From NCBI RefSeq assembly GCF_036588685.1, contig NC_086381.1:15314001-15378000 (forward strand): a stretch of DNA of 64,000 nt, read 5' to 3'. This DNA is from Mytilus trossulus (taxonomy: Eukaryota). Shown piece by piece: positions 5,704 through 46,056 of the stretch. Under the pieces are notes generated by a model. The model made no database searches, was not told the origin of the DNA, and worked only from the letters and a program-made list of their open reading frames with translations. Within the stretch, counting starts at the first letter, position 1. Each line of letters starts with the position of its first letter. The position numbers were made by a program, and so were the translations under genes.

Positions 5704-8495
5704 TCAAAGATACACATTATTAATCAGTATCTGGATGACAAGTATGTAAATTAAACACCAAGAGAAATTTTGGACGTGGTAGGAAGTTGCATGGTTAAAG
5801 TTGTCGGTAGCAGAATATCCTGATGCAGGAGAAATAGCTATGTCGGCGCATCCATAAAACTGTTCCTGGGGACCGCATCCAATACAACAGTTGTTATCTT
5901 TATCACAGCCGTACGAATTACCTGTAATAATAATAAAAAATAATATGTCAGATGCCCATAAACTAAATTTATTGAAATAAGAATGTAATTGAGATGTTTC
6001 GAGGGACCTGGATGGCTGAGTTCGGAAAACTTATTATTTTAGTTAATTTTCTAAATCCAAGGACTATAACTCTGCATAAACTCATCAGACCGGAACAACA
6101 TTCGAACTTGATCTGTCAATTGTCATGATGAAACAAATTAACAATACTTCAAAAATCAAATCAATATCTTCAAGAAGAAAAATGGTGTCGAAAACTGATT
6201 TGCCGGACTGAAGGTTGGACAGACAAGACAGACAGTCACAGACAGACCGACAGACAGACAGACAGACGGACGGAGTGCAAACAAGTTAAGTCGCTTTAGA
6301 TTTCGTCGGTAGACTGGGGGACTAATAATCTAGCCTATTGGAAACTGAAAATGAATAATCTTTTCAAACACTGAATGAAAATGAATACTCTGCAATGCTA
6401 TGGAATACAACCATTTGCAGCACATACTTTGTGTAGAAATAAGGAAAATTACCAAAGATGTAAATTAACCCCCCCCCCCCCCCCCCCTCCCCCCGAAATG
6501 TCTATCCTGTTGAATTGTGAATGAGATAATACTGCTAGTAAATGTAAAAATATATTGAAATACAAATTGTATGCACTATTTTAGTGGAGATATTGACATG
6601 ACATTTTTCATTTCAAAATATCTGCAATGTCACGTGATAATGACTTTGTAATATACGTTTTACCTGTATTCCATATCCATTGTAGCACACATTGTGTACA
6701 TGATACATCTCGAGGAAGAACAAGTGTTACTGCATATGTCCCAACAGCGCCAGGCTCATCAAATTTTGTTTGCCCGTTTGGTTGCTGGAGTATATGTGCA
6801 TCAAAGCATGATTGAGTGGCGCGGACACTCGGGTTATTAACAGGACAAATACGAAATTCGTGAAAACCTTTATGAGAAGCTGTTATTTCTAGTTTCACTT
6901 CCATTGTGTTTCCGGCACTATAATTTCCTGCTATAGTGCCAGTCGCATATTTTCCTCCAGCCTCGTTCTCACGTTTTTCGTCCCAGGGATCACCACATAG
7001 TCCACACTTTCCTTTGTTTAAAGTCCATTGTTTCTGAAAGTACCATTTTATGTAAATTTATACGTTAAACTTTTGCTTAAATTACAATGCAGTTGGTTCA
7101 TTTAAAATTGTTATAAAGACCGCCAAATGTTTTGGCTCTATTCATCTCATACGGTAATATCCTTCCGAATTATTTAAGATACTGTGTTTCTTGGTTGCCA
7201 AATTTTGTATTACAGTTTTAGTACTTAACAGCCGAAACTCGGACATTTTATTGAAACATTTACTATAATAGGGGTTGGTATCTAAAAAACTTCATTTAAC
7301 CTAGTATTTATTTTAAAAGGCTGTTTCAAAGTAAAAAAATACTACAGTTGTTTTCCATTCGGGTCTTTGGATGATACAGTCTAACGTTTGATTGTGGCAG
7401 GGTTTATAGACCTCCCCCTTTTTGAATTAACCTCTGAATCGATATTTTTATTAATATTTATTTGCATTCATTAACGACTTATAGAGCCAACAAGTTATTT
7501 AGGCTAACGATATTCTGCATTAAAATGAAATATCGCGGGAAATACCCAAATATCAAGATACGTTTTTATCTGTAAACGTTTCGAGCTACCGAAGAGAGAC
7601 ACAGGGATAGATAACTGATGTCGTGTTGTCGTCGTCCGCGTCAAAATTTGCTTTAAAAATTAATTCATAAAAGTCATAGATTTATTAATATGTTCACAAG
7701 GCCTTGGTTGTTACACATTTGAAGTTAATTCCGAAAATTATCGATTTAATTATAAAAAAAAACAAAATATTATACATGTAGCTTTAAGACTTTATGAAGA
7801 TGACATCAAATCTTTGGCTTGCATGACTTATTTAGATTCTATTTGCCCAACTATGGAAACATAAACAAAAACAAATAAAAAATTGTGTTTCGATGTTCTT
7901 CATTGGGTTTTGTAACACATAATTCTAATTTCATATTCAGAAATAATCTATTAATCGAAACATATTACTACATAAATTATTCAAACAAAGAAAATAAATC
8001 TTAACGTACAAGTGAAACTCGACTTAAAATCCAGTATAACGATGACTTATTATTTTTTACACTACAGGCAACACCTCACAGTTACAAACCTTAAACACAA
8101 AAGTTAGTATCTATAGGTTTATATACCGTGGCAGGGAGGATTTTGAGAAAGATTGACAATGCTAACATTGACGTGTGTTTGGTGTTTCAAACAGTGAATT
8201 TTGGCTTTGCCAAATTTTACGTCGCTATAAAACTACAGAAAGAATCACTGAATAACAAAAATTAAATGCTAAATTAAAAAAAATGAAATATAGAATAGAC
8301 AACCAGAGATATATCAAGTATACATACGTAAAAGCCGCCACATGAAACTTGGTTGTCGTTATAATTCTTAGGAGTGTTATATCCAAGCCGCCACATGGTG
8401 GATCTACCGGGAGGTAAAATAAGTCTTCCATGCCCATAAGTACAGGCAAATAACGATGCTAGAGTAAAAATTGTGATCATCATTCTGCTCCACAT
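5704..8495 (-). CDS. LPMO1: AA15-family lytic polysaccharide monooxygenase (chitin-binding type-4 fold), ~251 aa, with hydrophobic C-terminal tail; exons 8495-8328, 7033-6664, 5921-5704
   Basis: GT-AG introns in phases 0 and 1. Signal peptide MWSRMMITIFTLASLFACTYG, then His1 (HGRLILPPGRSTMWR), CGGF, GKCGLCGDPW, EAGGKY, TASHKGFHEFRIC, CVLQWIWNTGN and CGPQEQFYGCADI. Ends FSWCLIYILVIQILINNVYL*. Minus-strand AATAAA at 5557-5562. Confidence 0.92.
5978..6328 (-). mobile_element. Helentron/HINE-like non-autonomous element with (GACA)n microsatellite, in the last intron of LPMO1
   Basis: Core ataactct..gaacttgatctg, a gaca/gacg microsatellite at ~6215-6273, and the end ggggactaataa. This layout is typical of bivalve HINEs. 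Boundaries are approximate. Confidence 0.55.
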
Positions 8496-9825
8496 AAACT
8501 GCATATGAAAAAACAAAATAGAAGATAACTTATGTATTTGAAATAGATTTAAGTGGGGCTCAAACACTGAGTTTAACTGAAATAGTAAATTATTCAACTT
8601 GAACATGACTACATCGGTATGGTTATGGTATTTTCTTTTCCTTAAATTACACGCACTATCTTGTTCATAAAAAAATAATAATTTCATACAATGAAAGGGA
8701 TATGACAAAGGAATAAAGCAAATGATACAAGCAAACAACATCCCCACTGTCAAACAAAAATTGTTAAGCTTATGAATTGTATACCATTTTTTAATGGACA
8801 AGTCATTTCCACGGGTGTCATTCTGTTTATCGAGAGAAATGAGCGTGAAAGAATATCTAACGGCGGTCAAGTATTGAGCGACGATCGTGAAAGTTCTGGT
8901 AACAGATCGTGAAAGACATTTAATCGAGAAGAAATATAAAAGGTCAATACATATTATAATTTTATTAATTACACAGACAAATTTACGACAAAATAAAACT
9001 GTCTGTCAAAATGGTTCAACATTATGATTAGTATGTGAGAATATCGAGTTTTAAAAGTACATAGTTATTACAAAACAACAAAAGGCAGATTGCTTCTCGA
9101 CATTTCAATGACATAAAAAATGTAAACAAACATGATTTTTTTCACGAATTCGACTAGAAAACCTAGTTTAATACGAATAAGGGCATTCTATTTGAATTAA
9201 TCAAATGGTTCTCATAGTTATTTTGCATAAACATAATCTGAAACTTGGTAAATAAAGAACTATTTACACAAAAATGGATTTTTTGGATCGTGAAAGATCA
9301 CGTACCGTATTTTTGAAGATCGTGAAAAGGATCGCGAAAGATCCGATGCTACGAAGACGTTCAAATTATTCTTCAATTATATCATAGTTAATATTTGTTA
9401 TTGGTATTGAGAAAAGCTATATAGTTCAACATCCTCAATAGGTTTAGCTTTTCAAAGTATAAATATTTTCAGAAAATGAAATGTAAAATAGTTGGATGAT
9501 TGTAGGATGAAGCTTTTTATTGTCATGTGAAGTACTCACTTATCACGAGTTATAGGATACCCACATTTGGTATATTGGATCCTATAAACTACATGTCCGC
9601 CAGACAGGATTCACCTGACCCCGAATTTGCCTTATTTCATGGATGAAGATTCATTTTTGTGGTCAAGTCCGTATCGCGGATTCGTTAAGCTTTAGGATAA
9701 GTGTCTGTTGTTATGATTGTGAGGTGTACATTTTCGACTTCTGCAAGGTTTCAACTGAAATTGAACCCATTGTCATACATCATTCGTCAATGCTCGTTTT
9801 ATGTTGTCTAGCCTTTGGATATATA

Positions 9826-10675: not shown

Positions 10676-11009
10676 TACCTGTATGCTATAGCGCCATGGT
10701 ATTTCGTGTAAAGTGTACATGTCTGTTTGCATGTTTCATAAATGACCATAATGACGTCAAATGTATTTGATATATTGAATGATAGTAAGATGTCTATGTC
10801 TCGCTGTCGGTCAGGGTTCATATACTTTTGACCTTATGTTTCGAATTAATTGGCCAAGCATAACTTTTATATTTGTCAGTTTCTAAAGCGCTGTAAGGAT
10901 CGGAACACATTTATTTGGTCTACGGGATATTTGCAGAGATCTGTATGTCACGGTTCATCTGACCTTGCACTCTTTTTATTAACCATTGACAATAATAATT
11001 TTAAAAAAA

Positions 11010-11420
11010 ATGTGAAAGAGACAACTATCCACAAGAGACCAATGTGACACAGACATTAACAACTATAGGTCACCGTACGGCCTTCAACAATGAGCAAAGC
11101 CCATACCGCATAGTCAGCTATAAAAGCCCCCCATAGTGACAATGTAAAACAATTCAAACGGGAAAACTAACGGCCTTATTTGTATACAAAAAAATGAACG
11201 AAAACCAAATATGTAACGCATAGATAACAATCAACAACCACTGAATTGCAGGCGCCTGACTTTGGACAGGCACATACATTAACAATGTGGCGGGGTTAGA
11301 CACGTTAGCGGGATCCCAACCCTCCCCTGAATCTGGGACAGTGGTATAACTGTACAACATAAGAACGAACTATAAAAATAAATGAAAAAGGCTTAATTCA
11401 TCAGATGGACAAAAATACAT
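11010..11420 (-). repeat. copy of a very abundant interspersed repeat family (core gagagttgtctcattggcaatcataccacatct / ttgaaggccgtacggtgacctatagttg)
   Basis: Other recognisable copies lie near 4550, 5075-5400, 12540-12690, 19200-19270, 39025-39215, 41440-41680, 51221-51380, 53340-53460, 53905-54175, 62860-63000 and 63530-63700. Confidence 0.75.
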
Positions 11421-13754: not shown

Positions 13755-14354
13755 TTAGCTCACCTGGTCCGAAGGACCAAGTGAGCTTTTCTCATCACTT
13801 GGCGTACGTCGTCCGTCGTCGTCGTCGTAAACTTTTAACATTTTGAAATTCTTCTAGAGAACCACTAAATGGAATGAAACTAAACATGGCATGAGTGTTC
13901 CCTGTGAGGTGCTGACCAAGTGTTGTTTCTTTGTAGCCAATCCATTATCCAAGATGGCCGCAAGCGGGGGACTTAGTTTAGCATAGGACCCTTTGGGAAA
14001 TACATACACCATTCTTCTTTTAGAGAGCCTCTGAATGGAATGAAACCAAACATAGCATGAATGTTCCTGGTGAGATGCTGACCAAGTGTTGTTACTTAGT
14101 AGCCAATCCATCATCCAAGATGACCACCAGCGAGGGGCTTAGTTTGACATAGGACCCTATTGGAAATACATAAAAGTCGTTTTCTAGAGAACCACTGAAT
14201 GGAATGAAACCAAAAATAGCATGAATGCCCCTTTCCTAATCAGGTGCTGGCCAAAAGTTGTTAATTTGCAGCCTGATTTTTTTTTTTTTTTTGATGATTT
14301 CAAAACCCCAAGTAGAGTCAGGTGAGCGATACAGGCTCTTAAGAGCCTCTAGTT
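13755..14354 (+). mobile_element. Helentron-associated (HINE/DINE-1-like) element with ~165-bp internal tandem repeats
   Basis: 5' T-run plus TAGCTCACCTG, a hairpin, a (GTC)n tract, and repeat starts at ~13854, 14021 and 14184 (agagaaccactgaatggaatgaaaccaaacatagcatg). The 3' end has the inverted CAGGTGAGCGA, the palindrome aggctcttaagagcct and TT. Confidence 0.85.
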
Positions 14355-18743: not shown

Positions 18744-20528
18744 TTAATGTTTTCTACAAGCATCCGTGCAGTATGTACTTGGTGGACATTTATTCTGGTT
18801 GCATAGAGAAACACAGTATTGGTCGGCATACGGATTACGTCTTTTAAACAGTGGAGTTGCTTTGCATGTACCAATAGCATGTCCTAAAATTGGTAGGAAG
18901 CTAAATGGGCGTCCTTGTTGAACACCGGTACCAGTACCAGAAGACTGACTGGTTCCTGACGATGCAATAGCTATATCTGCACAGCCATAAAACTGTTCTT
19001 GTGGTCCGCAGCCAATACAACATTTATGGTTGTTATCACAATTATATGAATTCCCTGTAAAATATTAGTTAAAATTTGAATTCCAATTTATCCTATTATT
19101 TTAATAAAAATGTACAACATTGTTCATGATAATTTGTTTTAAAAACCAACCAAAAACAAACCCCTGTGTAACAAATTGACCAAAGGCCTTTCTGTTTTCT
19201 CCTCTTTGGTCGTGTTGTTGTCTCTTTGACGCAATTCCCATTACTATGCTCAATTTTATTACTGCGCTTCGTAACACAGAAATATTGGAAATATACAAAC
19301 CAAAAGTAAAGACTGTTGTTCGTCATTATGATCAGATGCCTATAACGGATAGGTGCATATTGTCCTTATTTGTTCGATTTAAACAGTGAGTTATTAACGA
19401 TTTGAAAAAATAAAAGAAGATATGGTATGATTGGTAATGAAAAAGTCTATTCAAAGACATTTGCTAAAGTTGCATTTTCAAGGTAGTAATATTAGAGAAT
19501 GTCTTACCCGTATTCCATTTCCATTGTAAAACGCACTGCTTGCATGACAACCCTTGAGGGAGTACCAAATGAACTGTATATGTACCAATTGCACCTGGTT
19601 CGTAAAACTTAGTCTGACCACTAGGTTGTTGCAGTACATATCTATCTAGACATGCTTGTGTAGCTGGTTGACGTGGATTATTTACTGGACAAAGACGGAA
19701 CTCAAAGTATCCAAGATGAGTAGCAGTGACTTGGACTTTGACCTCAATTGTCTGTCCTGATTTATAGTGTCCAGTAACAATACCGTTTGCATATTTCCCT
19801 CCAGCCTCGTTATCATGCGCTTCATTCCAAGGGTCTCCACATACTCCACATTTTCCACCATTCACTGCCCATTGTGTCTAAAAATGATGAGTACGTGGTA
19901 CATGTTTTACTTCGTATTTAAAATATATAGATAGCGCACATATGCAAGCATTCATTAACCTATTTATTCAAATTAACAAAAATATTTAAATGTGACATTG
20001 TCTTATTTGTTCTATACAAAAAACAACGAGCGAAATTATAAAAATACTAAATGGCATAGTAATTTTGCCTTATTGGAGGACATGCACATCTAACAACCGG
20101 GTGCCCTTCTCCTACTTCCTAAAACATACCCGTACACAATTTTCATAAAGATATCAAAAGCTTCTATTAAACTCAGTATACCTTTAAAATAGCCGAGTGC
20201 TAATGGTAAACACGGTAACGATCCAAAAAGATATCTTATATAACTCAGGTGCTACATGTATAATAGTTAAACACGATATTAAGCATTTAGTTTGTACTGC
20301 TTAATTATTTCACTCGAATTTTTTTTGGTACTTATTATTGCATACTTTTGATATATTTATCTTGATACTTACATTGAAGCCACCACAATATAATTGGTTG
20401 TCGTTGTAATTTTTAGGTGTTTTGTATCCATAACGCCACATCGTAGATCTACCGGGAGGAGAAACAAGTCTTCCGTGTCCGAACACAGATGCAATTATTG
20501 CTACCAGAACTGTTATTTGCAGCAACAT
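18744..20528 (-). CDS. LPMO2: AA15-family LPMO, ~278 aa, with C-terminal 6-Cys module; exons 20528-20373, 19877-19508, 19054-18744
   Basis: Signal MLLQITVLVAIIASVFG|HGRLVSPPGRSTMWR, then TATHLGYFEFRLC, CVLQWKWNTGN and QEQFYGCADI. Tail CKATPLFKRRNPYADQYCVSLCNQNKCPPSTYCTDACRKH*. GT-AG introns; the middle exon is 370 bp as in all four copies. Confidence 0.93.
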
Positions 20529-20802
20529 AATGATATCCTGAAGAAAACCAAGCAGAAGTAATTTTTTTTTCATATTTTGTGAAAAATTTCTGTACAAGTT
20601 CACTGTTAAGATAATTAACAACTGTTGACAATGTCAATACCTTTTCTTAGGTATTCACTGGTCTACATGTCTTGCGAATAAGCAAACGTTTTCGTTTTAT
20701 TATTTAGAAGTTATAATTATTACTATCAAATGTTTTAAATAAATGTATTTTTTTTTGAACAAAATAGTGTTTGAAAAAAACAAAAAGTATATATTTTTAC
20801 TT

Positions 20803-20965
20803 ACTTTTGTTAAATGCTGAATATTGCCACTTTTTTCTGTTTGTATACAATGTTCCATGTGCTTCCGTATTTATAGTACAAGACACGGATATTCAAGATA
20901 ATCAGTGAAGATTAATTAGTTTACTTTAAGATAATCCATACTTTAATCTCTTCGAAACGTACGTA
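20803..20965 (-). promoter_or_regulatory. LPMO2 TATA core promoter and short non-coding first exon
   Basis: Minus strand reads tacgtacgtttcgaagagatt..aatatccgt..cTATAAATAcggaagcacat..ttgtatacaaaca..GTAAGT (TATA 20868-20875, donor ~20803). It is homologous to the blocks upstream of LPMO3 and LPMO4. An acceptor sits just before the ATG at 20538-20539. Confidence 0.7.
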
Positions 20966-25150: not shown

Positions 25151-26550
25151 TACAGAACAGCCTTGCCTTTCACATGTTTGAGTTCGAGTGATCCCGATGA
25201 AAGGAAAACCACCAATGCAGCTGTAACGCCACGAATATACAAATTGTTTTACATTTTCTAGCACTTAACATGTAAATACAGCTGCAATATGACTGCTAGT
25301 TTCAGACGGTATAATCGACTAGGAAGTCAATGCTTTACAAATATGATTGATAAAATTTGTATTTTTTATCCTTCCTTTTTGAGTTGAGTATCTTTCCTCA
25401 TTCAAAGTTTAACACATATTGATTTTGGTTACCTGTTCATGTCCCTTTTTGACACATCGCTTCTAAAGTATTCAAGAACCTATAAATCTGTATACATTTT
25501 TATGTAAATGGCATTAACATTTTATAATTTTGAGCGTTTGGATGAAGGTTTATCAAGAAAGCTCTTCGGATTAACTAAATTTATAAAGTATTGTTTTCAT
25601 TTTATTTAATCAGGATGATGATATACTTTCATTTCACATATATGATTCGATGTTTAACACAACTGTTTTAGTTTTTCAAAAGGAGTGCCAGTTTGTTTGG
25701 GTAAACATCAGTTTACAACATAGACCTGTTATATCAACTGAAAATTCAGAGATAAACTGCTGTACCCCTATTTTTGATATTTTCACCTATTATGTTTTGT
25801 TAGCGTATCGTTGTCAATATAGAGGAATTTGAGGCGACTGCCATACAAGTGAGAGGTTTATATAGCTATAAAACCAGGTTCATTCCTCTATTTTCTAGGT
25901 AAGAAAATGCCTGTACCAAGTTAGGAATATGACAGTTGTTCAAACCGAGTCAGTTACCGTATTGACAACACTACATTTTTTTCTTCTAGAAAGACATTTA
26001 TATTGTATGCTCGAAATAAACATTTTGAAAATACATAATTATATGAAGTATTACAATGACCTATTGAAATCGAAAAGCTAAAACATGCATCTGTTCAATT
26101 TTGCGTTAGAAAGTTGAATGAATATACATTTTAAATATTATCAGTCAGTTATCACTCAATGAACCTTGTTTTACAATTCTTCTTCCACTTATATCATTTG
26201 ATGTTATGACCATATTTGTAAATCTTATTTACAATTTAAATGTTACGATAAGACACTGAATGGTTGGAAAATCAAACAACACATTGCAATTTTCATGTGA
26301 AATTGATAAAGATAAAATAATGTAAATAATAAAACAAACAATAAAAACAATGGAAGTTGTATGAACCATGTTAGTTTTCTTTTTGTATTCAAAGCCTTTT
26401 GCGTATTTTCGCAATCATAATACAATGAAATGAAGGCGAACCAACGTCATACACCTGATGGTCAACGACAGGGACTACCCTTTTACACCATTGTGGGATT
26501 AACAGATGTTTAGGTCACTTATCAATATTCAACGCAGTTTTACATTTTAA

Positions 26551-26700
26551 ATACGTATGTTGCGAAGAGATTACAGAATGTGTTATCTTATAGTAAACTT
26601 ATTAATCCGCGTGTATTCACTGATATATCCGTCCCTTTTCCTATAAATATGGAAGCACATGTAAGATTGTATACAAACAAAAGCACGTGGAGAACTAGGT
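26551..26700 (+). promoter_or_regulatory. LPMO3 TATA core promoter and short non-coding first exon
   Basis: atacgtatgttgcgaagaga..atatccgt..ccTATAAATAtggaagcacat..aaacaaaagcacgtggagaa..ag|GTAAG (TATA 26642-26649, donor 26699). The acceptor at 27420-27421 lies just before the ATG. Confidence 0.72.
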
Positions 26701-27430: not shown

Positions 27431-29156
27431 ATGTTGACACAGATTTATACAGTATGCACATTTGTTGCTGTCGTCAACGGCCACGGCAGACTTATCTCCC
27501 CTCCTGGAAGATCCACAATGTGGCGCTATGGATACAACACACCTAAAAATTACAACGATAACCAGATGTCTTGTGGAGGGTTTTATGTAAGTTGTTATAG
27601 ATATCAAACTATTTTTTAACTAGAAATTAACAAATATTTTAACAAAGAATTTATAAAGTTTATTGCTACAATATATATAAAAGAAAGGTATTCCCTTTTC
27701 AATTATAATAAGAAAAATGTGCATCATTGATAAACTAGTATTATAATAGCTTCTGTATAATGTTTATCATCCTTGTCCTTATACCATGCATTTAATATAA
27801 CAGTATTTCTTTCTTTCAGAAACAATGGACACTAAATGGAGGAAAATGTGGCGTATGTGGTGACCCTTGGAACGAGGCTCATGACAACGAGGCTGGAAGA
27901 AAATATGCAACAGGCACCATTGTTAGTCAATATAACACAGGACAAAATATTCAGGTTAAAGTTCAAATCACTGCTACCCATCGTGGATATTTTGAGTTCC
28001 GTCTTTGCCCGGTTAACAATCCACGTCAGCCAGCCACTCAAGCCTGTCTAGATAGAAATGTACTAAAGCAATCAAATGGACAGTCCAAATTCTATGAACC
28101 AGGAGCAATCGGAACATATACAGTTGATCTTATTCTACCGCAAGGTTTAACCTGTACGCAATGTGTATTACAGTGGAAATGGAATACTGGTAAGATAATC
28201 TGATTGAATTTGTGCACAGTTGTCTGATACATATACATTCACTTTTTAATTTGATAATCACTATGTTACACTCAAAATTGAGAATGTATGTCATTTAAAG
28301 TTTTAACAATATTTTGATATATAAGGTCACATATTCATTAACGCAAAAAGACAGGCTTGAACTCACATGTCTTACAGGTTTTGCCAAATTTTAGTAATTA
28401 TCTATCTCTTTAATATATATGAAGAACAACGTCAATCGATATAAAATGCTATTGGAGCCCATTTTAACGACTCAATTAAAGCATTAGGTATTTATTTGCC
28501 TTTTAATAACGTTATATTTATATATAAGCTTGTATGTGAAACACAAATATCTTTGTCTTAATAATCCACAGCTGGTACATATATATCGATGAAGAGAGAA
28601 TGTTTGCCTTTGTATTATGATATTTTGTTTCTGCAAATTCGGGCTTTTGGGTTTTATTACTATTTTTAAGTATGCAACAATACTTATCAGAAAATATGTA
28701 GAATCATTAATAACACACAGAACTAATTAGTTACGTTATGCTATCAATTACAATTATCTGGCATACTCAATTTTATTTTATAATGTGTTCAGAACAATAG
28801 GATATGAAAATTGTTGTAATACTTTAACAAGTATTTATTTTCTTTTTGCAGGGAATTCATATAACTGTGATAACAATCATAAATGTTGTATTGGTTGTGG
28901 ACCACAAGAACAGTTTTATGGGTGTGCAGATATAGCTATTTCATCGTCTGGGACAAGTCAGTTTTTAAATACTGGTGTTCACCAAGGACGCCCAGTGGGG
29001 TTTTTACCCATTTCAGGACAAAACGTTGGAACATGCCAGGCAACCCCACTGTTCAAAAGTCGTTATAGATATGCCGATCAATATTGTGTATCTCAATGCA
29101 AACAGAACAAATGTCCACCACGCATATACTGCACCGATGCTTGTAGATCTCACTAA
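27431..29156 (+). CDS. LPMO3: AA15-family LPMO, ~276 aa, with C-terminal 6-Cys module; exons 27431-27586, 27820-28189, 28852-29156
   Basis: Signal MLTQIYTVCTFVAVVNG|HGRLISPPGRSTMWR, then TATHRGYFEFRLC, CVLQWKWNTGN and QEQFYGCADI. Tail CQATPLFKSRYRYADQYCVSQCKQNKCPPRIYCTDACRSH*. All splice sites are GT-AG and in frame. Confidence 0.94.
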
Positions 29157-33326: not shown

Positions 33327-35840
33327 ATGGATTGCTCATTTCTTCTGCTTGTGACATTTTGCATAATTAGCAAACTTGCATATGCAGATATATGTGAACT
33401 CAGTGCTTTATTTGCAAACTGCTCAAAACGTGGATTGGCGAAAGTTCCTCAGAATCTGCCGGATTATATTACTAATCTCGAATTATCAGAAAATAACATT
33501 ACAAAGATAGAACCAAATGCATTCAAACAATATGGTAAGCTAGTAGTTTTACACTTAGAACACAACAAAATAAGTATCTTAGACAGTGATGCATTTATGG
33601 GCTTATGCGAATTGAAGGTGCTTTTTCTAACAGGAAATCGATTGGATCATACAAAATATCCGAACAATGTTTTCCGTCCGCTAAAGAACATACAAGAACT
33701 TTATCTGAATCGAAACATGAGACGTGCACCTCCGTCTGAGCAAGAACAAACTTGTAAATATTCCGACACAGCCTTCAGCTGGATGACTTATCTAAAAATT
33801 CTGTCAATTGATCTATGTGGAAGCTCAGATTTTGGCATCGGATTTCTCAAGTTGATACATTTGCAGAATCTTACATTTGATTATTGTCTAGCTTACAATT
33901 TTACTCGACAAACCTTTAGTAATTTTAGAAATTCTAACGTCACTGTGCTGAACCTCAGTCGATGTGAACTGTATGAAATGAGTGAATCTATTGACGCTGG
34001 AATTTTATATCCTTTTTCAAATGTGACAAGTCTGGATTTATCAAACTCATATTTTAGCCTAAAGCACGCCCTGAAGTTTTTGTTGCCATTCCGTAATAAG
34101 AAAATGGATATGATAAATCTTCATCGTGTAAGTCGGAATGATAGAAGCAGTCCAGATAATCCATTCAAAATTGTTATAACAAGTGAAATGATGCAGTTTC
34201 TTAGAACCATCTGTGTGAAAACTCTTATTCTGTCATACAATGGAATTGTAGATGCAAAACCCAACTCATTATTTGTTTTTGATCACCCGGAGTGCTTTGA
34301 AAATATTATAGGATCAGCAAATAGTATTTGGTTGGAATACCCTCTCCAATACATCGAGGTTCAAAAATTATTAAGTACCATGATTAATCTTCGACTATTC
34401 GATTATTCATACGTCCCGCATAAGTTTGCAGAAATGAACTTTATACTCCCGTCAAATTCATTGATCATAAACAATCACATGTTATATACAGATAGAACCC
34501 TAACCAATATAACGTTGTATCTTCCACCTAAACTGGAACATGTACGATTTAGTCATGTAATGGCGGCGTCCAAACTGTTCAGCGTGATAATTAAGAATAC
34601 ACTGGCACTGAAAATTTTAGATTTATCGTATGTTTCCTTCAAAGAATTTCCTGATATTTTCATGCCTGAAGGTAACTTTATAGAACTCCTAGATTTATCA
34701 GGAATAGATTCAAGGTTATATGTTGATAAAGGAGTTACTGAATTAATGGGAGAAGTAAATACTCTCCTCATACGTGATGCCAAATTAGATCTAACATTTA
34801 GAAAACGAAAAAATGTCTTTAAATATTTAAGAAATCGAACAATTAGTATTGATATTTCTCATAATCATCTTTGGGCCCTTCCAAAATCTGTTCGTGTCAT
34901 GACCAATTTAGAACACATTGATTTGTCTTATAACTCATTCCGAAAATTTCCGAAGATATTGACATCGTTATATAATCTCAAAAGAGTAGACCTAAGATTT
35001 AACAAGTTACTAACCTTAGACAAAAAAGTTACACAATGGGCTGACGATGTTTGCAAAACACACAATTTTACATTACTTTTCGTCGGGAATGAATTTGCTT
35101 GTAGCTGTGAAAATCGACACTTTTTGTGGTGGCTTACACAAACCAAGGTTTTATTGGACAGAGACGGGCATTATCATTGTCGATTTCCTAATGGAACAAG
35201 GACAAATATTACTGATGTTATGGAACAATTCCATGATACATTTTCAGATTGCGATGCTATCGTTTGGTTACGTATAGGTGTCATTTGCATCGTTTCGTCC
35301 TTTGTCGTCATTTGTTTATCAGCTATACTTTATCAGTTTAGATGGAGAATGGCATATTTTTTCTATCGAAAACTGAAAATGAACTATGTAATTGAATCGG
35401 ACGATGTTGAATTCAGGTATGACATCTTTGTTGCATATGCATCTGATAGTTGCGAATGGCTTAAAGGTTCATTAATACCGATACTTGAACGAGAATGGAA
35501 ATTGAGTGTTTGTGTGAAAGATCGTGATTTTCCGGTAGGAGAAGACCGAGCAGATACTGTCATCAATAGCATGAGAAATAGTAAATTTATAATTTTTATA
35601 ATTACACCAAAATTTATCAAAAGAAAATGGGGAAAATTCGAAATCGAAATAGCTAAATATGAAATGTTTGAACAAAGAAAACAGAAACACATTATTGTCA
35701 TAATGAAAGACGGCACATCAAAGGAGGACGTTCCTATTGAATTTAGTCTTATATGGAAAGATGTCATAATGATCGAATGGCCAAGCGATGATATGAATAC
35801 CGAAAATGTGTTGTATGATCTAAAGTTACAATTGAGTTGA
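33327..35840 (+). CDS. TLR-A: intronless Toll-like receptor (signal, LRRNT, LRRs, single LRRCT, TM, TIR), 837 aa
   Basis: First ATG at 33327. LRRNT CSKRGLAKVPQNLP, multiple LxxLxLxxN repeats, LRRCT NEFACSC..C..C, TM WLRIGVICIVSSFVVICLSAILY, TIR box1 YDIFVAY and box2 DRDFPVG. AATAAA at 35871. Confidence 0.95.
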   Translation: MDCSFLLLVTFCIISKLAYADICELSALFANCSKRGLAKVPQNLPDYITNLELSENNITKIEPNAFKQYGKLVVLHLEHNKISILDSDAFMGLCELKVLFLTGNRLDHTKYPNNVFRPLKNIQELYLNRNMRRAPPSEQEQTCKYSDTAFSWMTYLKILSIDLCGSSDFGIGFLKLIHLQNLTFDYCLAYNFTRQTFSNFRNSNVTVLNLSRCELYEMSESIDAGILYPFSNVTSLDLSNSYFSLKHALKFLLPFRNKKMDMINLHRVSRNDRSSPDNPFKIVITSEMMQFLRTICVKTLILSYNGIVDAKPNSLFVFDHPECFENIIGSANSIWLEYPLQYIEVQKLLSTMINLRLFDYSYVPHKFAEMNFILPSNSLIINNHMLYTDRTLTNITLYLPPKLEHVRFSHVMAASKLFSVIIKNTLALKILDLSYVSFKEFPDIFMPEGNFIELLDLSGIDSRLYVDKGVTELMGEVNTLLIRDAKLDLTFRKRKNVFKYLRNRTISIDISHNHLWALPKSVRVMTNLEHIDLSYNSFRKFPKILTSLYNLKRVDLRFNKLLTLDKKVTQWADDVCKTHNFTLLFVGNEFACSCENRHFLWWLTQTKVLLDRDGHYHCRFPNGTRTNITDVMEQFHDTFSDCDAIVWLRIGVICIVSSFVVICLSAILYQFRWRMAYFFYRKLKMNYVIESDDVEFRYDIFVAYASDSCEWLKGSLIPILEREWKLSVCVKDRDFPVGEDRADTVINSMRNSKFIIFIITPKFIKRKWGKFEIEIAKYEMFEQRKQKHIIVIMKDGTSKEDVPIEFSLIWKDVIMIEWPSDDMNTENVLYDLKLQLS

Positions 35841-36989: not shown

Positions 36990-37300
36990 CTAAAGGGAGG
37001 ACGAAAGATACAAAAGGGACAGTCAAACTCACAAATCCAAAATAAACTGACAACGCCATGGCTGAAAATGAAAAAGACAAACAGACAAACAATAGAACAC
37101 ATGACACAACATAGAAAAAACTAAAGAATAAACAACACGAACCCCACTAAAAACTAGGGGTGATCTCAGTACTCCGGAATTGATTAGATCCTGCTCCACA
37201 TGTGGCACCCGTCGTGTTGCTTATGTGATAACAAATCCGGTAAATTCAGTAAGGTCACATTCATGAAAGGGAAGGGGATTGCAGTTACGACGTAAGAAAC
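36990..37300 (+). repeat. interspersed repeat family (gggacgaaagataccagagggacagtcaaactc...gatcctgctccacatgtggcacccgtcgtgttg)
   Basis: Further copies at ~13490, 36060-36240 and 45220-45510 (LPMO4 intron), and an inverted partial copy at ~29545-29620. Confidence 0.7.
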
Positions 37301-40300
37301 ATATCCGATTTAATAATGATCTCGTCGCACCAGAAAACCACAAAAAAAAAACAGTTAAAAGGTCATACTACACTGAAATTTTCATCGAATTATATCGTTT
37401 TTCATATAAAGGAGAATGTAGGTTACATAACTACATGTACAAGTATGCTTTTCATAGTACACACAGATATTTGTAAGTGTACGTAAATAAGTGTTAACAT
37501 ATGTATTGGTATACAGGTATAATGAATAAAAACACAAAAGATTAACGGGTAAGATATTACATGAAATAATTGATTATTGGTCAATATTGAATTATTAAGC
37601 AAGAAATGAGCTAAAAGGTAAAATATTGCCGCATAATATCAATATCAACTGATATAAAAACACATGTATTTGTTTGAAATGTGGTATAAATAGTATCCAC
37701 GATTACCATTAATATCGTATATCCACCTAAACTATCTATTCGTGAAAAATTATAAGTATCAACTCAAAATCTACTTATGTATATATATGGCACAATAAGA
37801 CAATTACTCACTAGTTCCGTTACAACATTCAACCCCCACTTATAACTGTCGTATCCGTATCGTGGGAAATTATAAGTATCCACCTTGAGATATTTATTAT
37901 ATTATAAGTTCATATCAATATATACCAAAATTTCTTTATATTTCCAATAACCAAAAAAGATAAGCATTAGGTGTTTTAAATTTCCGAATGCCATGTTTGC
38001 TTAAAATTGATCTGAGAGTCCATATTTTACCGCTGCAACTAATCCGTTGGGATCGTCACCATTCTGAAGTAGGGAAATATTTGATAATCCACATTCATTT
38101 AATATGCCATTTACATTTAACACCTAAAAATGGGCCATAGTATGTCTAGAATGATTGGCTGTAGATGACATTTACAATGCTGTGTATTGTCCGTCGCATC
38201 GTAGATAGTCCGTGTTCAAAACAGATACAACACTTTAACTACTATAATTCGCAGCAAAACATTATGTTATTGTTCTGCAAAAAAGAAATATATATATCTA
38301 TAGTCTATTTTCAGATTTCTGTCATTACTCTCTCTGTTGTGTATTTATGATTATAAGCATTTGTTTTTTAAGTATACACGTCTTGCAAATATAGTTACTT
38401 GTTTCGTGTTAAAAGTCGGATAATATATAAATTTAAAACGTTATAAATAAAACTGTTAAATTTTCAACTATTGTTGTGCATCATAACTTGTTTTCTTATA
38501 GTTTTGAAAGTCTTATATATCAAAGTGTTTGATTTTGTAAACAATGCGCCGAATGCTTCTGTATTACGTTTTGTGAAAGTAAGTAACGCAAATTCAAGAT
38601 AATACTTTAGATATGATGATTGGTTAGTTTGTTTGTAGGTGTGTCATACCTATATCTCTATGGCACATATATATTTTAGAATAAATAATTGATTTATCTT
38701 CGCTTGTGATCTGAACATATTACGTCTATAAGTATGTTAGATCAATATCTAGTCCTAGCCATTCTGTATGTGTCGTTGCGTAGTGTGTGTGAATTGGACT
38801 TAGTTCCGTTCTTTATCCTAAACAAAAATCAAAAGTAAAGGACTAACATTACCGTGCAAAGCAAATGATCATCTATGCGGGAGGAAATTTTCAAAACTTA
38901 TTTATTAATATCAAATGGGTGTTAAAGAATATCTCCCGTAATGTTTTTTCGCACATTCTGACTAAAAAGTACTCGAGTACAAGAAAGGCTAGCGCTAAAA
39001 TCTCTTAATTATATAAAATAAAAAATATGTGGTATGATTGCCAATGATACAACTTTCCACAAGACACCAAAATGACAGAGACATTAATAACTATAGGTCA
39101 CCATAAGGCCATCAACAATGAGCAGAGCCCATATCGTATAGTCAGCTATATAAGGTCCCGATATGACAATGTAAAACAATTCAAACGAGAAAACTAACGG
39201 CCTTATTATATAAAAAGAACGACAATCAAATATTAAAAATACTCGAATTAAGAAATAATCTATCAGTTTGGAAATAAACAAAATATTATGATTGATATTA
39301 TTGATATTATTGATATTTTAATCAAACATCTTAATACTCTAAAGTATGAAAAGCTGCAATGGTTCTGTATACAATTCGTTCCCATGTCTAATTAGTTTGA
39401 CGCTGAATGGAGAATGGTCTAGCCGTCTAGGTAACAAATATAGAAACTCCACATAGTTAGAAAGAAAAATTATTGAAATTCTAAGGATTGATAACATTAA
39501 CACCATAAACGAACCAAATCAAACCACCAAATAATTACTCGAAGACTTTCAAAATTGTTCAATTTTACATTATAAACGTTCACAAATACAAATCAGTATT
39601 GTAGTGGAGAATATTAAGCGCATGCACTATTTTATCTAGAAGAATAGGAACTATGGTCAGGATTAGGAAGTATATCATATAAATACAAACCATGGACAAT
39701 TGTTTTTTCTTCATTTCTGTTTTGCTGTAATAGATAATTTGAACATTTCCTCTTGAAACTTGTCTATGTTTGTGACATGAAAAAAGAAAAAAAAAAACAG
39801 TTGATTTTCACAATGAGATTATGTTTAAAACATATGCATTATGAAAATGATGTAAAATGAAATGGTAGCAAAAACTGTAAACCCAATTCTGATCCAAACT
39901 ACTTATTGATAGCTTTTAACTTAAATATGATTGTTATCACTATTCTGCAGAGAAACACCTTTCCGGTGCTAATTCTTATTACACACATTCTACTGTGGAA
40001 GATATAATAAGATGAACTCTGTAACCTTCAATAATTCGGTGACTAGTACTAGCAAATATCATTTCATCTGGGAAACTGGGGAACACGTGCTTTGTTGTGA
40101 TGCAACCCGGATATGAAAGTAGATCATACGACAAAAGGAAATAATTATCCAGTATCTTATAATATATTTACTTAACTCTGAATAATTACCAAACAATCTA
40201 CGATAAGTACATCTCAGTGTACATTGTTTTTGTTTTTATCATAACCTCCAATATAAGGAATACTTATTAAATAAATATGGCTGTCCTGTATACCTTTATA

Positions 40301-43094
40301 GGCCATATTACATACCAAACAAACGATTTGAATATTTTGATGTAGTGTGTATTTGCCAGACGGGGTATTAATTTTTCCAGAGGCACTTGATAGACATCCT
40401 ATTAGTTTCATGGTTCACGAATGGTTGACCGATACGATTAGCCATCACATGTTTTTGCGGTCTAAAATCTTTCGATTTTTTGATCCCAGTCATATAATAT
40501 GTAAATTTAACCATCGTTAAAAATTCACAGGATACATACATAGATATTGTGAACAAAAATGATTTCACATGGCCAGTAACGCATGCATAACAGGAGACGC
40601 GTAGCCTGTCGAAGCACCATGTTTGGGTTCGTTTAATTACCTCAGTTTTTGTTTTTATCTTGATGGTGGATTTATAACATTTCAATATCAGTAAACTACT
40701 ATTTTTGCTTATCATAACATTTCCCTTAGTAGTATATTAAAATACTACTGGTTTGTTCGGTTTGTTTCAAGTATTCAGAAATATAACAGCTTGGTCTGGT
40801 GTAGCCTGTACCTTTATTCTAAGGTGTTGGATGCATTCTATAAAAAAGTTTTGGCACACAACCTTCTATATGAACCACAAATGATTCCTTTATTAGTAAA
40901 ATTCGTACATGTATGTAGATAGTTATCAAAGGTACCAGGATTATAATTCAATACGCCAAACACGCGTTTCGTATACATAAGACTCATCAGTGACGCTCTC
41001 AGATCAAAAATGTTACCAAGCTAAACAAGTAAAAAGTTGAAGAGCATTAACGACTAAACATTCTAAAAAAAACTGTGCCGAATACAGCTAAAATAATCTA
41101 TTCATGTGATAATAAAATCCTTAGTGTTTCGAAAAAAAAGATGACCTTTAATTGATAGTCATGTCAACACCGAAGTGCTGACTACTGGGCTAGTGATACT
41201 CTAGATCTTGGGGACGAAACGTCCACCAGCAGTGGTGTCGACCTAGTGGTAAGTGCATATAGAAAAAAAACACCATACCGCTACATATTATTTGTGCATG
41301 TTCCTAGCCAGGAGCTTGTACTTTTTGCTGTTTCTCATAATTTGTTAATGGCTTATTGTTTTACATTGTTTGTTCTTTCTTTTTTTGTGTCGTTACATCC
41401 CTGTCCCAATTTTAAAGGGGAGTGTTTGGTGTCAAAATACTAGTTTACTTCGTCGTATTCTCTATGTGCATTTTTAAAGTCAGGAACCTATTTTTCAATG
41501 GTTGTCGTTTGTAGCTGTTTTACGTATTTGCTTTTCGTTCATTATATTTTACATAAACTAGGCCGTTATTTTTGTCTGGTTTGAATTCTTTTCCATTTGT
41601 TGGCCCTTAGTTGTTATTTTGTTTGTCATTAAGTCTTGAGGAGAGTTGCTTCATTGGCAATCATACCACTCTTCTTTTTAAATGTACAGGTATAACTTAT
41701 ACAGGCTATATCATCTATTGGATACTTTCCATGAAAACATCCAATCCTGGTATTCATGATGAGTTTATTCACCCTTAAGTTTAAATATGATTACACAAGT
41801 ATTGCTCTAGAAACTATCATTTCAATAGAACAGGTTCCAAACTGACAGTCTATCAACAGAGGTAACGACCCAATAATATACCAGATTATAGTCTACTTTC
41901 AGCAGGAAGGATCCAGTGGTGTGTACCGGACCCATAGTTCTTCAGAAGTATACCTTGTAAATGATACGTATCGAACATATAGTTCATCAGCTACAGTAAC
42001 GACCCAAAGATTTACCGAACTAAAAGGCCACAAGAAAAAGTATCGACCGATAGTATACTGATCTGAATATCAGAATGCAATGATACCGAACAATGTTAGA
42101 TTGACCATACATCGATTAAATTGCATACTCCATGTGGTTCTAAAATAATTTTTATCAGTTGCAGTAGAGATTAAAACTTTTAACAACTAAACATTGAAAA
42201 ACCAAATGGTCCTTTATAGATAGGCTAGATCAGTTTTTATGTAATATAGAGTTGAAATGATACTATAAGAATACTATTGCATAATGAATAATTAATTTCT
42301 AGACAAAATTTATATGTATCATCAGTAATATCAGTTGTTAAAACATTAAGTACCGATTTTAGGATGCACATAGTCCACCAGGAACAGTTTTGAATCAGTG
42401 GTAGAAATTTTATGAACTGTACATTTTCAAGTAAAAACATCATTACAATGAGTACTAGTAAATCAATTTAAGATCAATTTTGAAAGATGAAATATTATTT
42501 TTTAAATATGTCCTTTGAAAAATTGATTCATTACTTTTTGTCGACTTTTGTTAAGCCATATTTCTTAATATGATTAAATAAAAAATGATTGATCGAACAA
42601 CGAGAAAACACTTCGATCTAATTATTACTAAAAATATTGTGAAAGACTAGGGACTTTGTATCTAAGGAATAGACTATTTGCAGAACATTACGGAAATTTT
42701 AGTCCTCAATGCTCTTCAATTTCGTACTTTATTTGGTATTTTTGACCTTACATTCGAGCGTCATTGATAAGTCACGCGTCTGGTGAGAAAAAATTAAATC
42801 TTTGTAAGAAGAATGGGTTTAATAAACAAATTGATAAAGCTGACTTAATGTTTATGATAAACACAACATTCATAACAATGTACCTTTTAACCACGTAAAA
42901 GTTTGTTATTTTTCGTAACCTTTTGCGTATTTCTTTAAACGAAAAACAAAGGAAGTAAAAAATATGGAGGCGAACAAACGTCATAAAAGTCATGGTCATC
43001 GGCTGGTAATTCCCTTTTTAAGAATAGCCGGATTATCATATGTTCAGACATTTTTCACTTATCAAAACAACATTCGAATTATTACAAACGAATC

Positions 43095-43255
43095 ATACGT
43101 ATGTTGCGAAGAGATAAAAGAATGTGTTATCTAAATGTAAACTTAATAATCCTAGTCCATTCATTGTAATATCCGTAACTTCTCCTATAAATATGGAAGC
43201 ACATTTACAATTGTATATAAACAAAAGCACGTGGAGAAACAACTTCAAAATATGT
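43095..43255 (+). promoter_or_regulatory. LPMO4 TATA core promoter and short non-coding first exon
   Basis: atacgtatgttgcgaagaga..atatccgt..ccTATAAATAtggaagcacat..aaacaaaagcacgtggagaa..GTAAG (TATA 43186-43193, donor 43254). Highly similar to 26551-26700. Confidence 0.72.
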
Positions 43256-43687
43256 AAGAAATATTAGTAATTATTCACCGTAGCTAAATCTATAGACATA
43301 TACATTTTTGTCATAATATTTAAAAGTTTTGATATAAATTCTTAAGATTTTTCGGCATCAATTGCATCAAAATTTTATATTTGGGTAGTGTGCTTTGGGT
43401 GTGCAATTGAAAATAATTGCGTTATTTGGAAAATTAAGCATTGCTTGTAGACCTTCAATTGTCTCTTTCCAATATATATTTAGACTCATTGGTTGATATA
43501 TATCAAAAAAGGGGTATAGACACCTATATATTGTTGATGTATAATTTTCCCATCTTCTTAACCAGAACTGCTAAATTCTCAATTGTTGCAAAATCAAATA
43601 TTGATATTTTACTTTACGTGTATATAAACTAATTACTTAATTTACCATTCTTTATAAGACATTATTTGTAATTCACAGGAAAACAAT

Positions 43688-46056
43688 ATGTTGACACAGA
43701 TTTATACAGTATGCACATTTATTGCCATGGTCTTCGCGCACGGTAGACTTATATCTCCTCCTGGTAGATCCACAATGTGGCGCTATGGGTACAACACACC
43801 TAAGAATTACAACGATAACCAGATGTCTTGTGGAGGATTTTATGTAAGTCTTCATACACACCTTAGTTTTAATTAACAAAGGTTTCAAGTTGAATCAATG
43901 AAAACATAATGGTGTCTTGTACGACTAGATCTTAGAAACTGAGAACTGTCATTTACATTACAAGAAGGTAATAAATCTGCATCTTTAATATACTCGAGTA
44001 TATGTTTAATTTACTACTTCATAAATGTTTGAAATTTTCATACTTATATCATTTGTTTTTCGTACACATCACAGCGCAAAGCTATGTGTTTCATTCGATT
44101 TGCAAGCTATTTTGAATTAACAAATTCTGTAGACCAGCTAATTGTTAGAGCGATTTATTTTTCGCAAATTTCAGAAGTAAAAAATACAACGCGGATATAA
44201 ATTGTTGCGAGTATGTCATCTAAATAAAATAAATGTGAAAAACGCGAATTTAAAAAACTTTGAAAAAGGCAAGAAATAGCTCAACGCGATATAGTATCCA
44301 AGAAAAAAGTTTGTTTACAGTATAATTTCTGAGAGTCTGCCTCATGATTTTGCTAACGTTCTTTTTTTTTTTATTAAGATTTGAATTGGTACAGGTTTAG
44401 GATAGAAGATATTAAATAAGTACATTAATGATACAGTATGGGTAATTCAAACCCGATAAACAACATAAGCTTCATGTTTACGTAGTTTGTGAATCAAATA
44501 CTGCAAATGATTTTTGAAAAAGATTACATTTGAATGTATCATATTTTTCAGAAACAATGGACACTTAATGGAGGAAAATGTGGCGTATGTGGTGACCCAT
44601 GGAACGAGGCTCATGATAACGAGGCTGGAGGAAAATATGCAACAGGAACCATTGTTAGTCAATACAAGACAGGACAAAACATTCAGGTTAAAGTTCAGAT
44701 CACTGCTACTCATCGTGGATATTTTGAGTTCCGTCTTTGTCCGGTTAACAATCCCCGTCAGCCAGCCACTCAAGCTTGTCTAGATAGGAACCTTCTTAAA
44801 CAACATAATGGTCAGTCGAAGTTCTATGAACCAGGGGCAATCGGAACATATACAGTTGATCTTGTTCTTCCTCAAGGTTTAACATGTACACAGTGTGTAT
44901 TACAGTGGAAATGGAATACTGGTAAGATAAATTTATCTTATTTCAATCTATACAAATTACTAGAGATAAACAATTTTACAACTTTTATTGATTACCATAG
45001 AAATAATATAAAATTGAGAATGGATGGGGAATGTGTCAACCCGACCATAAAGCAGACAACAGGCGAAGTCCACTAGTGGGTCTTCAATGTAGCGAGAAAC
45101 TCAATAAGTATGAAAATAATTTGCATTATTCAGAAAAAATTGTCTCCGTATATCAATGCTGGTCTTTATCCACCTTTAAAAATGAAATGCCACACTTTCC
45201 TTATATATATTGTAGCCTTAAAAGAGGGACGAAAGATACCAGAGGGACAGTCAAACTCATAAATAAAATAAAAAACTGACAATGCCATGGCTAAAAATTA
45301 TCAGGACAAACAGACAAACAATAGTACACGCGACAGAACATCGAAAACTAAAGAATATACAGCACGAACCCCACCAAAAACTAAGGGTGATCTCAGGTGC
45401 TCCGAATGGGTAAGCAGATCCTGTTCCACATGTGGCACGCGTCGTGTTGTTTATGAGTTATCAAATCCGGTAAATAGTCTAATTCGGAAGGACACATTTA
45501 TGAAAGGGCTTAACTGCTCATGTGAAATGATCTAAAATATTGATTCCGGTCAATGTCACATATTTTCAACCATTCACGTAATAGATAATTATTATTGGAT
45601 GTATATATTGAGTTATTCGTATCACCAGGAACTAATAACGTACCTACTTATATCAATTACAATAAGTTTGTCATATGTCTTCTGAACAGTTAAAAGCTTA
45701 CTATGCTTGTTTATTATGTCTATTGTTATCTGATATTATTAACTCTTTCAGGGAACTCATACAACTGTGATAATAACCATAACTGCTGTATTGGTTGTGG
45801 ACCACAAGAACAGTTCTATGGGTGTTCAGATATAGCTATTTTGTCGTCTGGGACAAGTCAGTTTTCTCATACTGGTGTTCAACAAGAACACCCAGTCGGA
45901 TTTTTACCCATTTCAGGACATAATGTTAGAACATGCCAGGCAACCCCACTGTTCAAAAGTCGGTATCCTTATGCAGACAGATATTGTTTATTACAATGCA
46001 ACCAGAATAAATGTCCACCAAGTACATACTGCACTGATGCTTGTAGAATCCACTAA
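43688..46056 (+). CDS. LPMO4: AA15-family LPMO, ~276 aa, with C-terminal 6-Cys module; exons 43688-43843, 44552-44921, 45752-46056
   Basis: Signal MLTQIYTVCTFIAMVFA|HGRL. Exon sizes equal those of LPMO3 (156/370/305). Motifs TATHRGYFEFRLC and QEQFYGCSDI; tail CQATPLFKSRYPYADRYCLLQCNQNKCPPSTYCTDACRIH*. AATAAA at 46180. Confidence 0.94.

What the first reader, a model, noticed from the sequence alone, without database searches (positions are those of the whole stretch)
5704..46056. Four-gene cluster of intact AA15 LPMOs hidden from the ORF track
Seen: four genes share the same intron positions and phases, and the middle exon is exactly 370 bp in each. Each has His directly after the signal peptide, a second His in T-A-x-H, and the Q-E-Q-F motif. 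Established: these positions correspond to the histidine brace, the adjacent Ala, the second-shell Glu and the axial aromatic residue (Phe here) of AA15 enzymes. Inference: this is a local expansion of catalytically competent oxidative glycan-cleaving enzymes in a mollusc-like genome. Characterised AA15s come mostly from arthropods, and possible roles here include shell or gut chitin remodelling, digestion or defence.
Basis: partly seen in the sequence, partly recalled or inferred. Interest (0 to 1): 0.7.

Follow-up and report, generated by a model that had tools for sequence, protein, structure and literature searches.

The report
Mussel cluster of four AA15 LPMOs
Four neighbouring mussel genes encode intact copper-site enzymes of a known family that likely cut chitin by oxidation; three carry a small likely chitin-gripping tail and one a predicted membrane anchor, and three are already in public gene catalogues.

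Summary
Four three-exon genes (A, B on minus; C, D on plus) splice at GT-AG introns into open frames with His1, Ala87, His89, Glu178 and Phe180, matching the Thermobia AA15 structure 5MSZ by sequence (E 4e-60) and fold (rmsd 1.3 A). Contigs of public runs (RNA by guess) show both introns of A, B and C; none was listed for D. dN/dS is 0.04-0.08, and the four form one Mytilus clade. They are not hidden from annotation: A, B and C are identical to RefSeq Mytilus trossulus proteins, the cluster recurs in four other Mytilus species, and the genome holds at least 23 AA15-like exons, many with the same intron positions. Added here: B-D end in a six-cysteine module with no Pfam or PDB match, of the kind described on insect group I LPMO15 and also found on GH18 chitinases, while A ends in a GPI-like hydrophobic tail. 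Most likely these are chitin-oxidising enzymes that remodel the mussel's own chitin; activity and tissue are untested. Verdict: new members of a known family, modest interest.

The parts
5704..8495 (-). Gene A, AA15 LPMO with hydrophobic tail. Coding exons 8328-8495 (ATG at 8495 as in RefSeq, or 8483 as in orthologues; His1 8430-8432), 6664-7033 (His89 6872-6874), 5704-5921 (QEQF from 5868)
   Evidence: Model; Pfam; 230/230 identical to P0298 (M. trossulus LOC134685196); both introns in contigs
5707..5760 (-). Gene A C-terminal hydrophobic stretch (residues 213-230), predicted GPI-type anchor signal after a short Ser/Ala/Thr-rich spacer
   Evidence: Mean hydropathy of the last 18 residues 1.92 against -1.0 to -1.5 in B-D; kept in orthologues from four other Mytilus species; covered by a spliced contig. 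No GPI predictor was available
18744..20528 (-). Gene B, secreted AA15 LPMO with six-cysteine tail. Coding exons 20373-20528 (His1 20475-20477), 19508-19877, 18744-19054
   Evidence: 261/261 identical to P0002 (LOC134684322); junctions in run X8; fold
18756..18866 (-). Gene B six-cysteine module (Cys222-Cys258, spacing 16-3-4-5-3)
20804..20875 (-). Gene B non-coding first exon and TATA-like box (TATAAA 20870-20875); similar stretch upstream of C (about 26549-26697) and D (about 43100-43250)
   Evidence: 267-base GT-AG intron 20536-20804 in run X8; sequence; similarity among B, C and D upstream regions
27431..29156 (+). Gene C, secreted AA15 LPMO with six-cysteine tail. Coding exons 27431-27586 (His1 27482-27484), 27820-28189, 28852-29156
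   Evidence: 259/259 identical to P0283 (LOC134683622); one 866-base contig spans all three exons
29034..29144 (+). Gene C six-cysteine module (Cys220-Cys256)
43688..46056 (+). Gene D, secreted AA15 LPMO with six-cysteine tail. Coding exons 43688-43843 (His1 43739-43741), 44552-44921, 45752-46056
   Evidence: dN/dS 0.044 against C; closest records from M. edulis (240/247), M. galloprovincialis, M. californianus, M. coruscus. No junction of its own listed
45934..46044 (+). Gene D six-cysteine module (Cys220-Cys256)

Best explanation
The window holds four intact, spliced AA15-family LPMO genes that form a Mytilus-wide tandem cluster and likely encode copper enzymes that oxidatively cut crystalline chitin, probably the mussel's own. 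Shown: gene structure, brace residues, AA15 fold, purifying selection, splicing of A-C. Inferred from characterised AA15s: the leader is removed to free His1; His1 and His89 bind one copper; after reduction to Cu(I) the enzyme uses H2O2 or O2 to hydroxylate C1 of a beta-1,4 bond, nicking chitin fibres so that GH18 chitinases can act. B, C and D are predicted to be secreted and held on chitin by the six-cysteine tail; A appears to have lost that tail and is predicted to be held at the cell surface by a GPI-type anchor. The likeliest role is turnover of endogenous chitin (shell organic matrix or gut lining).
For: Only PDB sequence hit 5MSZ, E 4e-60, with H1/A87/H89/E178/F180 aligned to H1/A89/H91/E182/Y184; Foldseek E 4.5e-26, rmsd 1.3 A against 8e-7 for the next LPMO family. 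dN/dS 0.044-0.076 in 4 of 6 pairs, the other 2 saturated at silent sites. Junctions. Clade support 100/95. Phe-axial AA15s tested so far were chitin-specific: TdAA15B, OfLPMO15-1, AaAA15A (passages). Of 95 module-bearing proteins scanned, 18 carry LPMO_10 and 4 GH18, and none a cellulase family; 34 of 150 hits hold the exact insect group I motif. PF03067 proteins are listed in Tridacna and oyster shell proteomes; endogenous AA15 is very low in the shipworm gut.
Against: No activity, copper-binding or tissue data for these genes. The axial Phe is nearly universal in the homologues (122 of 126), so it says little about these four. The chitin-binding role of the tail is untested, and 72 of the 95 module proteins have no Pfam family at all. 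D has no listed junction and no identical database record. The M. galloprovincialis shell proteome paper gave no hit for the LPMO domain name searched. Signal and GPI cleavage rest on hydropathy only.
Confidence: 0.68

Rival explanations
1. Digestive enzymes: the cluster expanded to attack dietary crystalline glycans (diatom beta-chitin, algal cellulose), as with the midgut AA15s of Thermobia.
For: Thermobia expanded AA15 for digestion, and TdAA15A cuts both cellulose and chitin. Insect group III genes are midgut-specific and multi-copy.
Against: The cellulose-active TdAA15A has an axial Tyr; these have Phe. The tail matches the cuticle-turnover group I, not the tail-less midgut group III. Shipworm AA15 is very low in the gut.
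Confidence: 0.2
2. Defence proteins: secreted into mucus or haemolymph to attack chitinous fungi or parasites, or to make oxidants, alongside the neighbouring Toll-like receptors.
For: Two intronless TLR genes are interleaved with C and D.
Against: Strong purifying selection rather than immune-type divergence. TLR pair dS 0.81 against 0.43 for C-D, so LPMO and TLR do not look like one duplicated unit, unless gene conversion lowered C-D. Neighbourhood in animal genomes rarely implies shared function (own knowledge).
Confidence: 0.08
3. Non-catalytic copper- or chitin-binding proteins with an LPMO fold (like X325), or D an unexpressed duplicate.
For: Activity is untested; brace proteins without LPMO activity exist (X325 named). 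D lacks listed junctions.
Against: All five active-site positions match characterised AA15s. D is under purifying selection and has counterparts in four other species.
Confidence: 0.04

Closest known systems
CAZy AA15, Thermobia domestica TdAA15A (PDB 5MSZ) and TdAA15B
   Same: 48% identity over 194 columns, same fold, His1/His brace, Ala two residues before the second His, Glu-x-aromatic motif, signal peptide before His1
   Different: Axial Phe as in TdAA15B, not Tyr184; 12 cysteines in the catalytic domain against the ten called conserved; C-terminal extensions that the Thermobia enzymes lack
Insect group I LPMO15-1 (Tribolium, Locusta, Ostrinia; PMC9156745)
   Same: Phe-axial AA15 followed by a six-cysteine repeat; a profile of the mussel module retrieves 34 of 150 proteins with the exact published motif
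   Different: One module, not two; spacing 16-3-4-5-3 against 15-3-(6-9)-4-1; insect genes are single-copy. No named insect group I sequence was aligned here
Insect group II LPMO15-2 and GPI-anchored AA15s
   Same: Membrane-tethered AA15; GPI anchors in AA15 are mentioned in PMC8615602; 8 other homologues of 126 end in a hydrophobic tail
   Different: Gene A's tail is terminal, with no cytoplasmic part, and A nests with B-D, far from the insect proteins in the tree, so the anchor looks independently gained
RefSeq/UniRef 'chitin-binding type-4 domain' proteins of Mytilus (LOC134685196, LOC134684322, LOC134683622; M. galloprovincialis LOC143082581-583)
   Same: A, B and C are identical to the first three; consecutive locus numbers in other species show the same cluster
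   Different: Labelled uncharacterised; no AA15 name, tail or anchor is given; no identical record for D among the 35 cluster members listed
Oomycete X473 module on Aphanomyces AA15s (PMC8393829)
   Same: Short six-cysteine tail on AA15 and on chitinases, proposed to bind chitin
   Different: Reported only in Saprolegniales; homology to the mussel module was not tested

Membership tests
AA15 LPMO | Match to an LPMO profile (Pfam LPMO_10, PF03067) | tested here: met
   Exon 2 above cut-off in 4 of 4; full-length P0001, P0002 and P0121 cover positions 1-183 of 183
AA15 LPMO | Match to the CAZy/dbCAN AA15 HMM | not testable with these tools
   No CAZy library on hand; the stand-in tests in the next row were passed
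AA15 LPMO | Closer to AA15 than to AA10 or other LPMO families | tested here: met
   5MSZ is the only PDB sequence hit at E up to 0.01; fold E 4.5e-26 and 48% identity against 8e-7 or weaker and 20% or less for AA13/AA10/AA9/AA11 (model of B)
AA15 LPMO | Histidine brace (His1 plus second His) with adjacent Ala | tested here: met
   His1, Ala87, His89 in 4 of 4, aligned to His1, Ala89, His91 of 5MSZ; geometry in the model was not measured
AA15 LPMO | Axial aromatic residue and preceding Glu | tested here: met
   Glu178 and Phe180 in 4 of 4 align with Glu182 and Tyr184 (counted); the second-shell role of the Glu is from my own knowledge
AA15 LPMO | Signal peptide cleaved directly before His1 | tested here: inconclusive
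   17-residue hydrophobic leaders with small residues at -3/-1 (T-Y-G, V-F-G, V-N-G, V-F-A), kept in orthologues; SignalP not available
AA15 LPMO | Conserved cysteines | tested here: met
   12 Cys at identical positions in all four catalytic domains
AA15 LPMO | Copper-dependent oxidative cleavage of chitin or cellulose | not testable with these tools
   Needs an enzyme assay
Insect group I LPMO15-1 architecture | Two repeats of C-X15-C-X3-C-X6-9-C-X4-C-X1-C | tested here: not met
   B-D have one module spaced 16-3-4-5-3 and A has none; related, not a member
Known carbohydrate-binding module (CBM14, CBM1, CBM18 and others) | Profile or structural match for the tail | tested here: not met
   No Pfam hit, no PDB sequence hit, no Foldseek hit at E up to 0.001, no VIA match at Z 2 or more; a 46-residue model is a weak query
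GPI-anchored protein (gene A) | Small-residue omega site, polar spacer, terminal hydrophobic stretch | tested here: inconclusive
   Pattern present by eye and by hydropathy, conserved in orthologues; no predictor run

The most novel reading that the evidence does not exclude
Within mussels, a secreted chitin-tethered LPMO gave rise to a GPI-anchored cell-surface LPMO by swapping its tail, so that one locus supplies both a fibre-bound and a membrane-bound chitin oxidase for building shell or gut matrix; and the six-cysteine tail is an unclassified chitin-binding module with no solved structure, shared by AA15s from cnidarians, annelids, molluscs and chelicerates, by GH18 chitinases, and by repeat proteins with up to 22 copies.
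Probability: 0.4. Interest if true: 0.5.

Novelty: new member of a known kind. Interest (0 to 1): 0.3.

Why it matters
My searches found no biochemically characterised molluscan AA15, though proteins with this domain turn up in shell proteomes labelled only as chitin-binding. These four paralogues are a compact test set: near-identical catalytic domains with and without a tail or anchor. An assay would show whether oxidative chitin cleavage is part of shell or gut matrix turnover in bivalves, and would give a function to a common animal module that Pfam and the PDB do not cover. The family, its presence in molluscs and paralogue expansions are already known, so surprise is low.

Tried and rejected
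Pseudogene or assembly duplicate: rejected; no stops, dN/dS under 0.08, and C-D dS 0.43 with unalignable introns. LPMO plus TLR as one duplicated unit: not supported (dS 0.43 against 0.81). A larger cluster: no further match on the same contig for exon 2, the QEQF stretch or the module (these searches give lower bounds). Identity of the tail: Pfam, PDB sequences, Foldseek, VIA-align and the Atlas (on the oyster homologue P0011) gave nothing; none of this shows a new fold. Tissue of expression: runs are coded and are contigs, so no tissue or level could be read; missing D junctions prove nothing, as runs were picked with gene C and 21 joints were not shown. A joint from C exon 1 to D exon 2 in run X3 (47 bases on the short side) is read as an allele or cross-mapping, not trans-splicing. 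Earlier findings of this scan: none. No complex prediction was run, as no binding claim needed it. Supplements of papers were not read; CAZy X-module lists or tissue tables there could name the tail or these genes.
Full report
Observation. A six-frame motif scan found the HGRL start, T-A-x-H and Q-E-Q-F motifs together at four places. Splice sites read from the sequence give three coding exons per gene; joined by coordinates they translate without internal stops to mature chains of 230 (A), 261 (B), 259 (C) and 259 (D) residues. All 8 coding introns are GT-AG, phase 0 then phase 1, and exon 2 is 370 bp in 4 of 4. His1, Ala87, His89, Glu178, Phe180 and 12 cysteines fall at identical positions. 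Each His1 follows a hydrophobic leader of 17 residues (A has four in-frame ATGs giving 16-24).

Family. Exon 2 passes the Pfam LPMO_10 cut-off in 4 of 4; the 8 first and third exons match nothing alone. The database protein identical to B has one PDB sequence hit, Thermobia AA15 5MSZ (E 4e-60), with the five site residues aligned to His1, Ala89, His91, Glu182 and Tyr184 (Glu182 numbered by counting that alignment, its second-shell role recalled). An AlphaFold2 model from 60 sequences (mean pLDDT 86) matches 5MSZ at E 4.5e-26, rmsd 1.3 A, 48% identity; the next LPMO families score 8e-7 or weaker. No CAZy AA15 HMM or SignalP was available.

Expression. Logan contigs of five coded runs, RNA by the tool's guess, were laid. 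For C, intron 1 is skipped in 3 of 4 runs and intron 2 in 2 of 4, and one 866-base contig spans all three exons. For A, intron 2 is skipped in 3 of 4 runs and intron 1 in 2 of 4, with one contig spanning all three exons; for B, run X8 (1 of 4) shows intron 2, intron 1 (listed as 497 skipped with 2 letters between, net 495) and a 267-base 5' UTR intron. No joint for D's own introns was listed; only short exon pieces in X3, with 21 joints not shown. Runs were chosen with gene C, and the contigs differ from the genome by a few percent, so they come from other individuals or species. Tissue and level cannot be read.

Selection and history. Over 188 catalytic-domain codons dN/dS is 0.044 (C-D), 0.068 (B-D), 0.076 (B-C) and 0.056 (A-C, dS about 3); A-B and A-D are saturated. 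In a tree of 53 catalytic domains (4 window genes and 49 of the 126 homologues then held; 3 more chosen rows were dropped by my trimming pattern; the 19 other loci of this genome were not included) the four group with three Mytilus records at 100/95 as (A,(B,(C,D))); scallop and oyster paralogues form their own clades. A, B and C are identical to RefSeq M. trossulus LOC134685196, LOC134684322 and LOC134683622; D has no identical record among the 35 cluster members listed, but has counterparts in M. edulis, M. galloprovincialis, M. californianus and M. coruscus. The cluster therefore predates the split of these species. The genome has 23 exon-2 matches among 28 candidates scored, 4 of them in the window. 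Of the 19 others, 12 have the same acceptor, 13 the same donor and 9 both, with lengths 358-385 bp: the intron positions are ancestral, and the exact 370 bp reflects close kinship.

B, C and D end in a linker and a six-cysteine module spaced 16-3-4-5-3. A profile finds it in 70 of 126 homologues (58 by a stricter pattern). It is predicted to fold (pLDDT 80, two short helices) but has no Pfam, PDB-sequence, Foldseek or VIA match. A profile search of 1.84 billion proteins gave 313 hits at E up to 0.001. I scanned 95 of the best 150 (mostly those over 200 aa) against Pfam: 18 LPMO_10, 4 GH18 (2 with CBM1), 1 LDLa, 72 nothing. Named carriers include an annelid, gastropods and Nematostella and two chelicerates. 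34 of the 150 contain the exact motif published for insect group I LPMO15-1 (motif from PMC9156745). Chitin binding is inferred from these partners. A instead ends in a short polar spacer and 18 hydrophobic residues, kept in orthologues from four other species, as expected of a GPI signal. Scallop, oyster and Potamilus relatives carry the module, so A likely lost it; this polarity rests on a midpoint-rooted tree.

Mechanism. Shown: intact genes, splicing of A-C, AA15 fold and site, purifying selection. Inferred from characterised AA15s: secretion with His1 exposed, one copper in the brace, reduction and use of H2O2 or O2 (recalled general LPMO chemistry, also stated in PMC8615602), C1 oxidation of crystalline chitin and synergy with GH18. 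Phe-axial TdAA15B and OfLPMO15-1 are chitin-specific, but Phe is found in 122 of 126 homologues, and two termite enzymes were both chitin-only, so the axial residue is a weak guide. I put remodelling of endogenous chitin first (0.68) because the tail matches the cuticle-turnover group, proteins with this domain are listed in Tridacna and oyster shell proteomes, and shipworm AA15 is very low in the gut. Digestion (0.2), defence (0.08) and non-catalytic binding (0.04) follow.

Literature seen. PMC5823890: passages and the whole section on phylogeny; it names molluscs as AA15 carriers. Passages only: PMC8615602 (GPI anchors in AA15), PMC9156745, PMC8393829, PMC8561940, PMC11464482, PMC8217771, PMC5400390 (PF03067 used as a shell-related domain), PMC4517812 (no hit for the domain name), bioRxiv 10.64898/2026.07.25.740686 (no AA15). 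Eight searches, read as listings, showed no characterised molluscan AA15 and no paper on this cluster; the library lacks most subscription journals and no supplements were read.

Verdict. Real, correctly read, and ordinary in kind: new, partly annotated members of AA15 in a genus-wide tandem cluster. The tail-versus-anchor split and the unclassified module are the parts worth a bench test. Interest 0.3.

Noticed in passing
window 33327-35840 (+) and 56025-58562 (+): Two intronless Toll-like receptor genes (LRR plus TIR; 837 and 845 aa, 72% identical, dS 0.81, dN/dS 0.21), each downstream of an LPMO gene.
   Followed up: partly
window 3034-3954 (+): Large exon of a Cys-loop ligand-gated ion channel (Neur_chan_LBD and Neur_chan_memb). 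An M. edulis model (P0122) joins a helicase-like part, gene A exons and the antisense frame of this exon: likely a misprediction, but it shows the same gene order.
   Followed up: partly
L013, L014, L020, L021, L023: 5 of the 23 AA15-like loci of this genome lack the second brace His at the aligned position (read by eye); they may be non-catalytic or use another copper site.
   Followed up: no
window 20856-20875 (-): The 22-residue N-terminal extension of the RefSeq model of B starts at an ATG only 17 bases after a TATA-like box, so it may lie upstream of the transcription start; the second ATG (20528) gives the usual 17-residue leader.
   Followed up: partly
window 48407-49171 and 54314-55026: Inverted pair (81% identical) of low-complexity tandem repeats that give stop-free His/Ile-rich or Met/Cys/Tyr-rich frames; probably satellite or mobile-element DNA.
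   Followed up: no
P0127, P0128, P0129, P0131, P0134: Proteins with 4 to 22 matches to the six-cysteine module and no Pfam family; possible structural chitin-binding proteins.
   Followed up: no
P0289, P0292: M. coruscus and M. californianus each list a second B-like protein, suggesting a fifth cluster member in those species.
   Followed up: no
window 13849-14273; 11015-11212, 39006-39233, 51219-51383, 53348-53461: A tandem repeat of about 165 bases and a dispersed short repeat family, the laid copies very abundant in the contigs.
   Followed up: no
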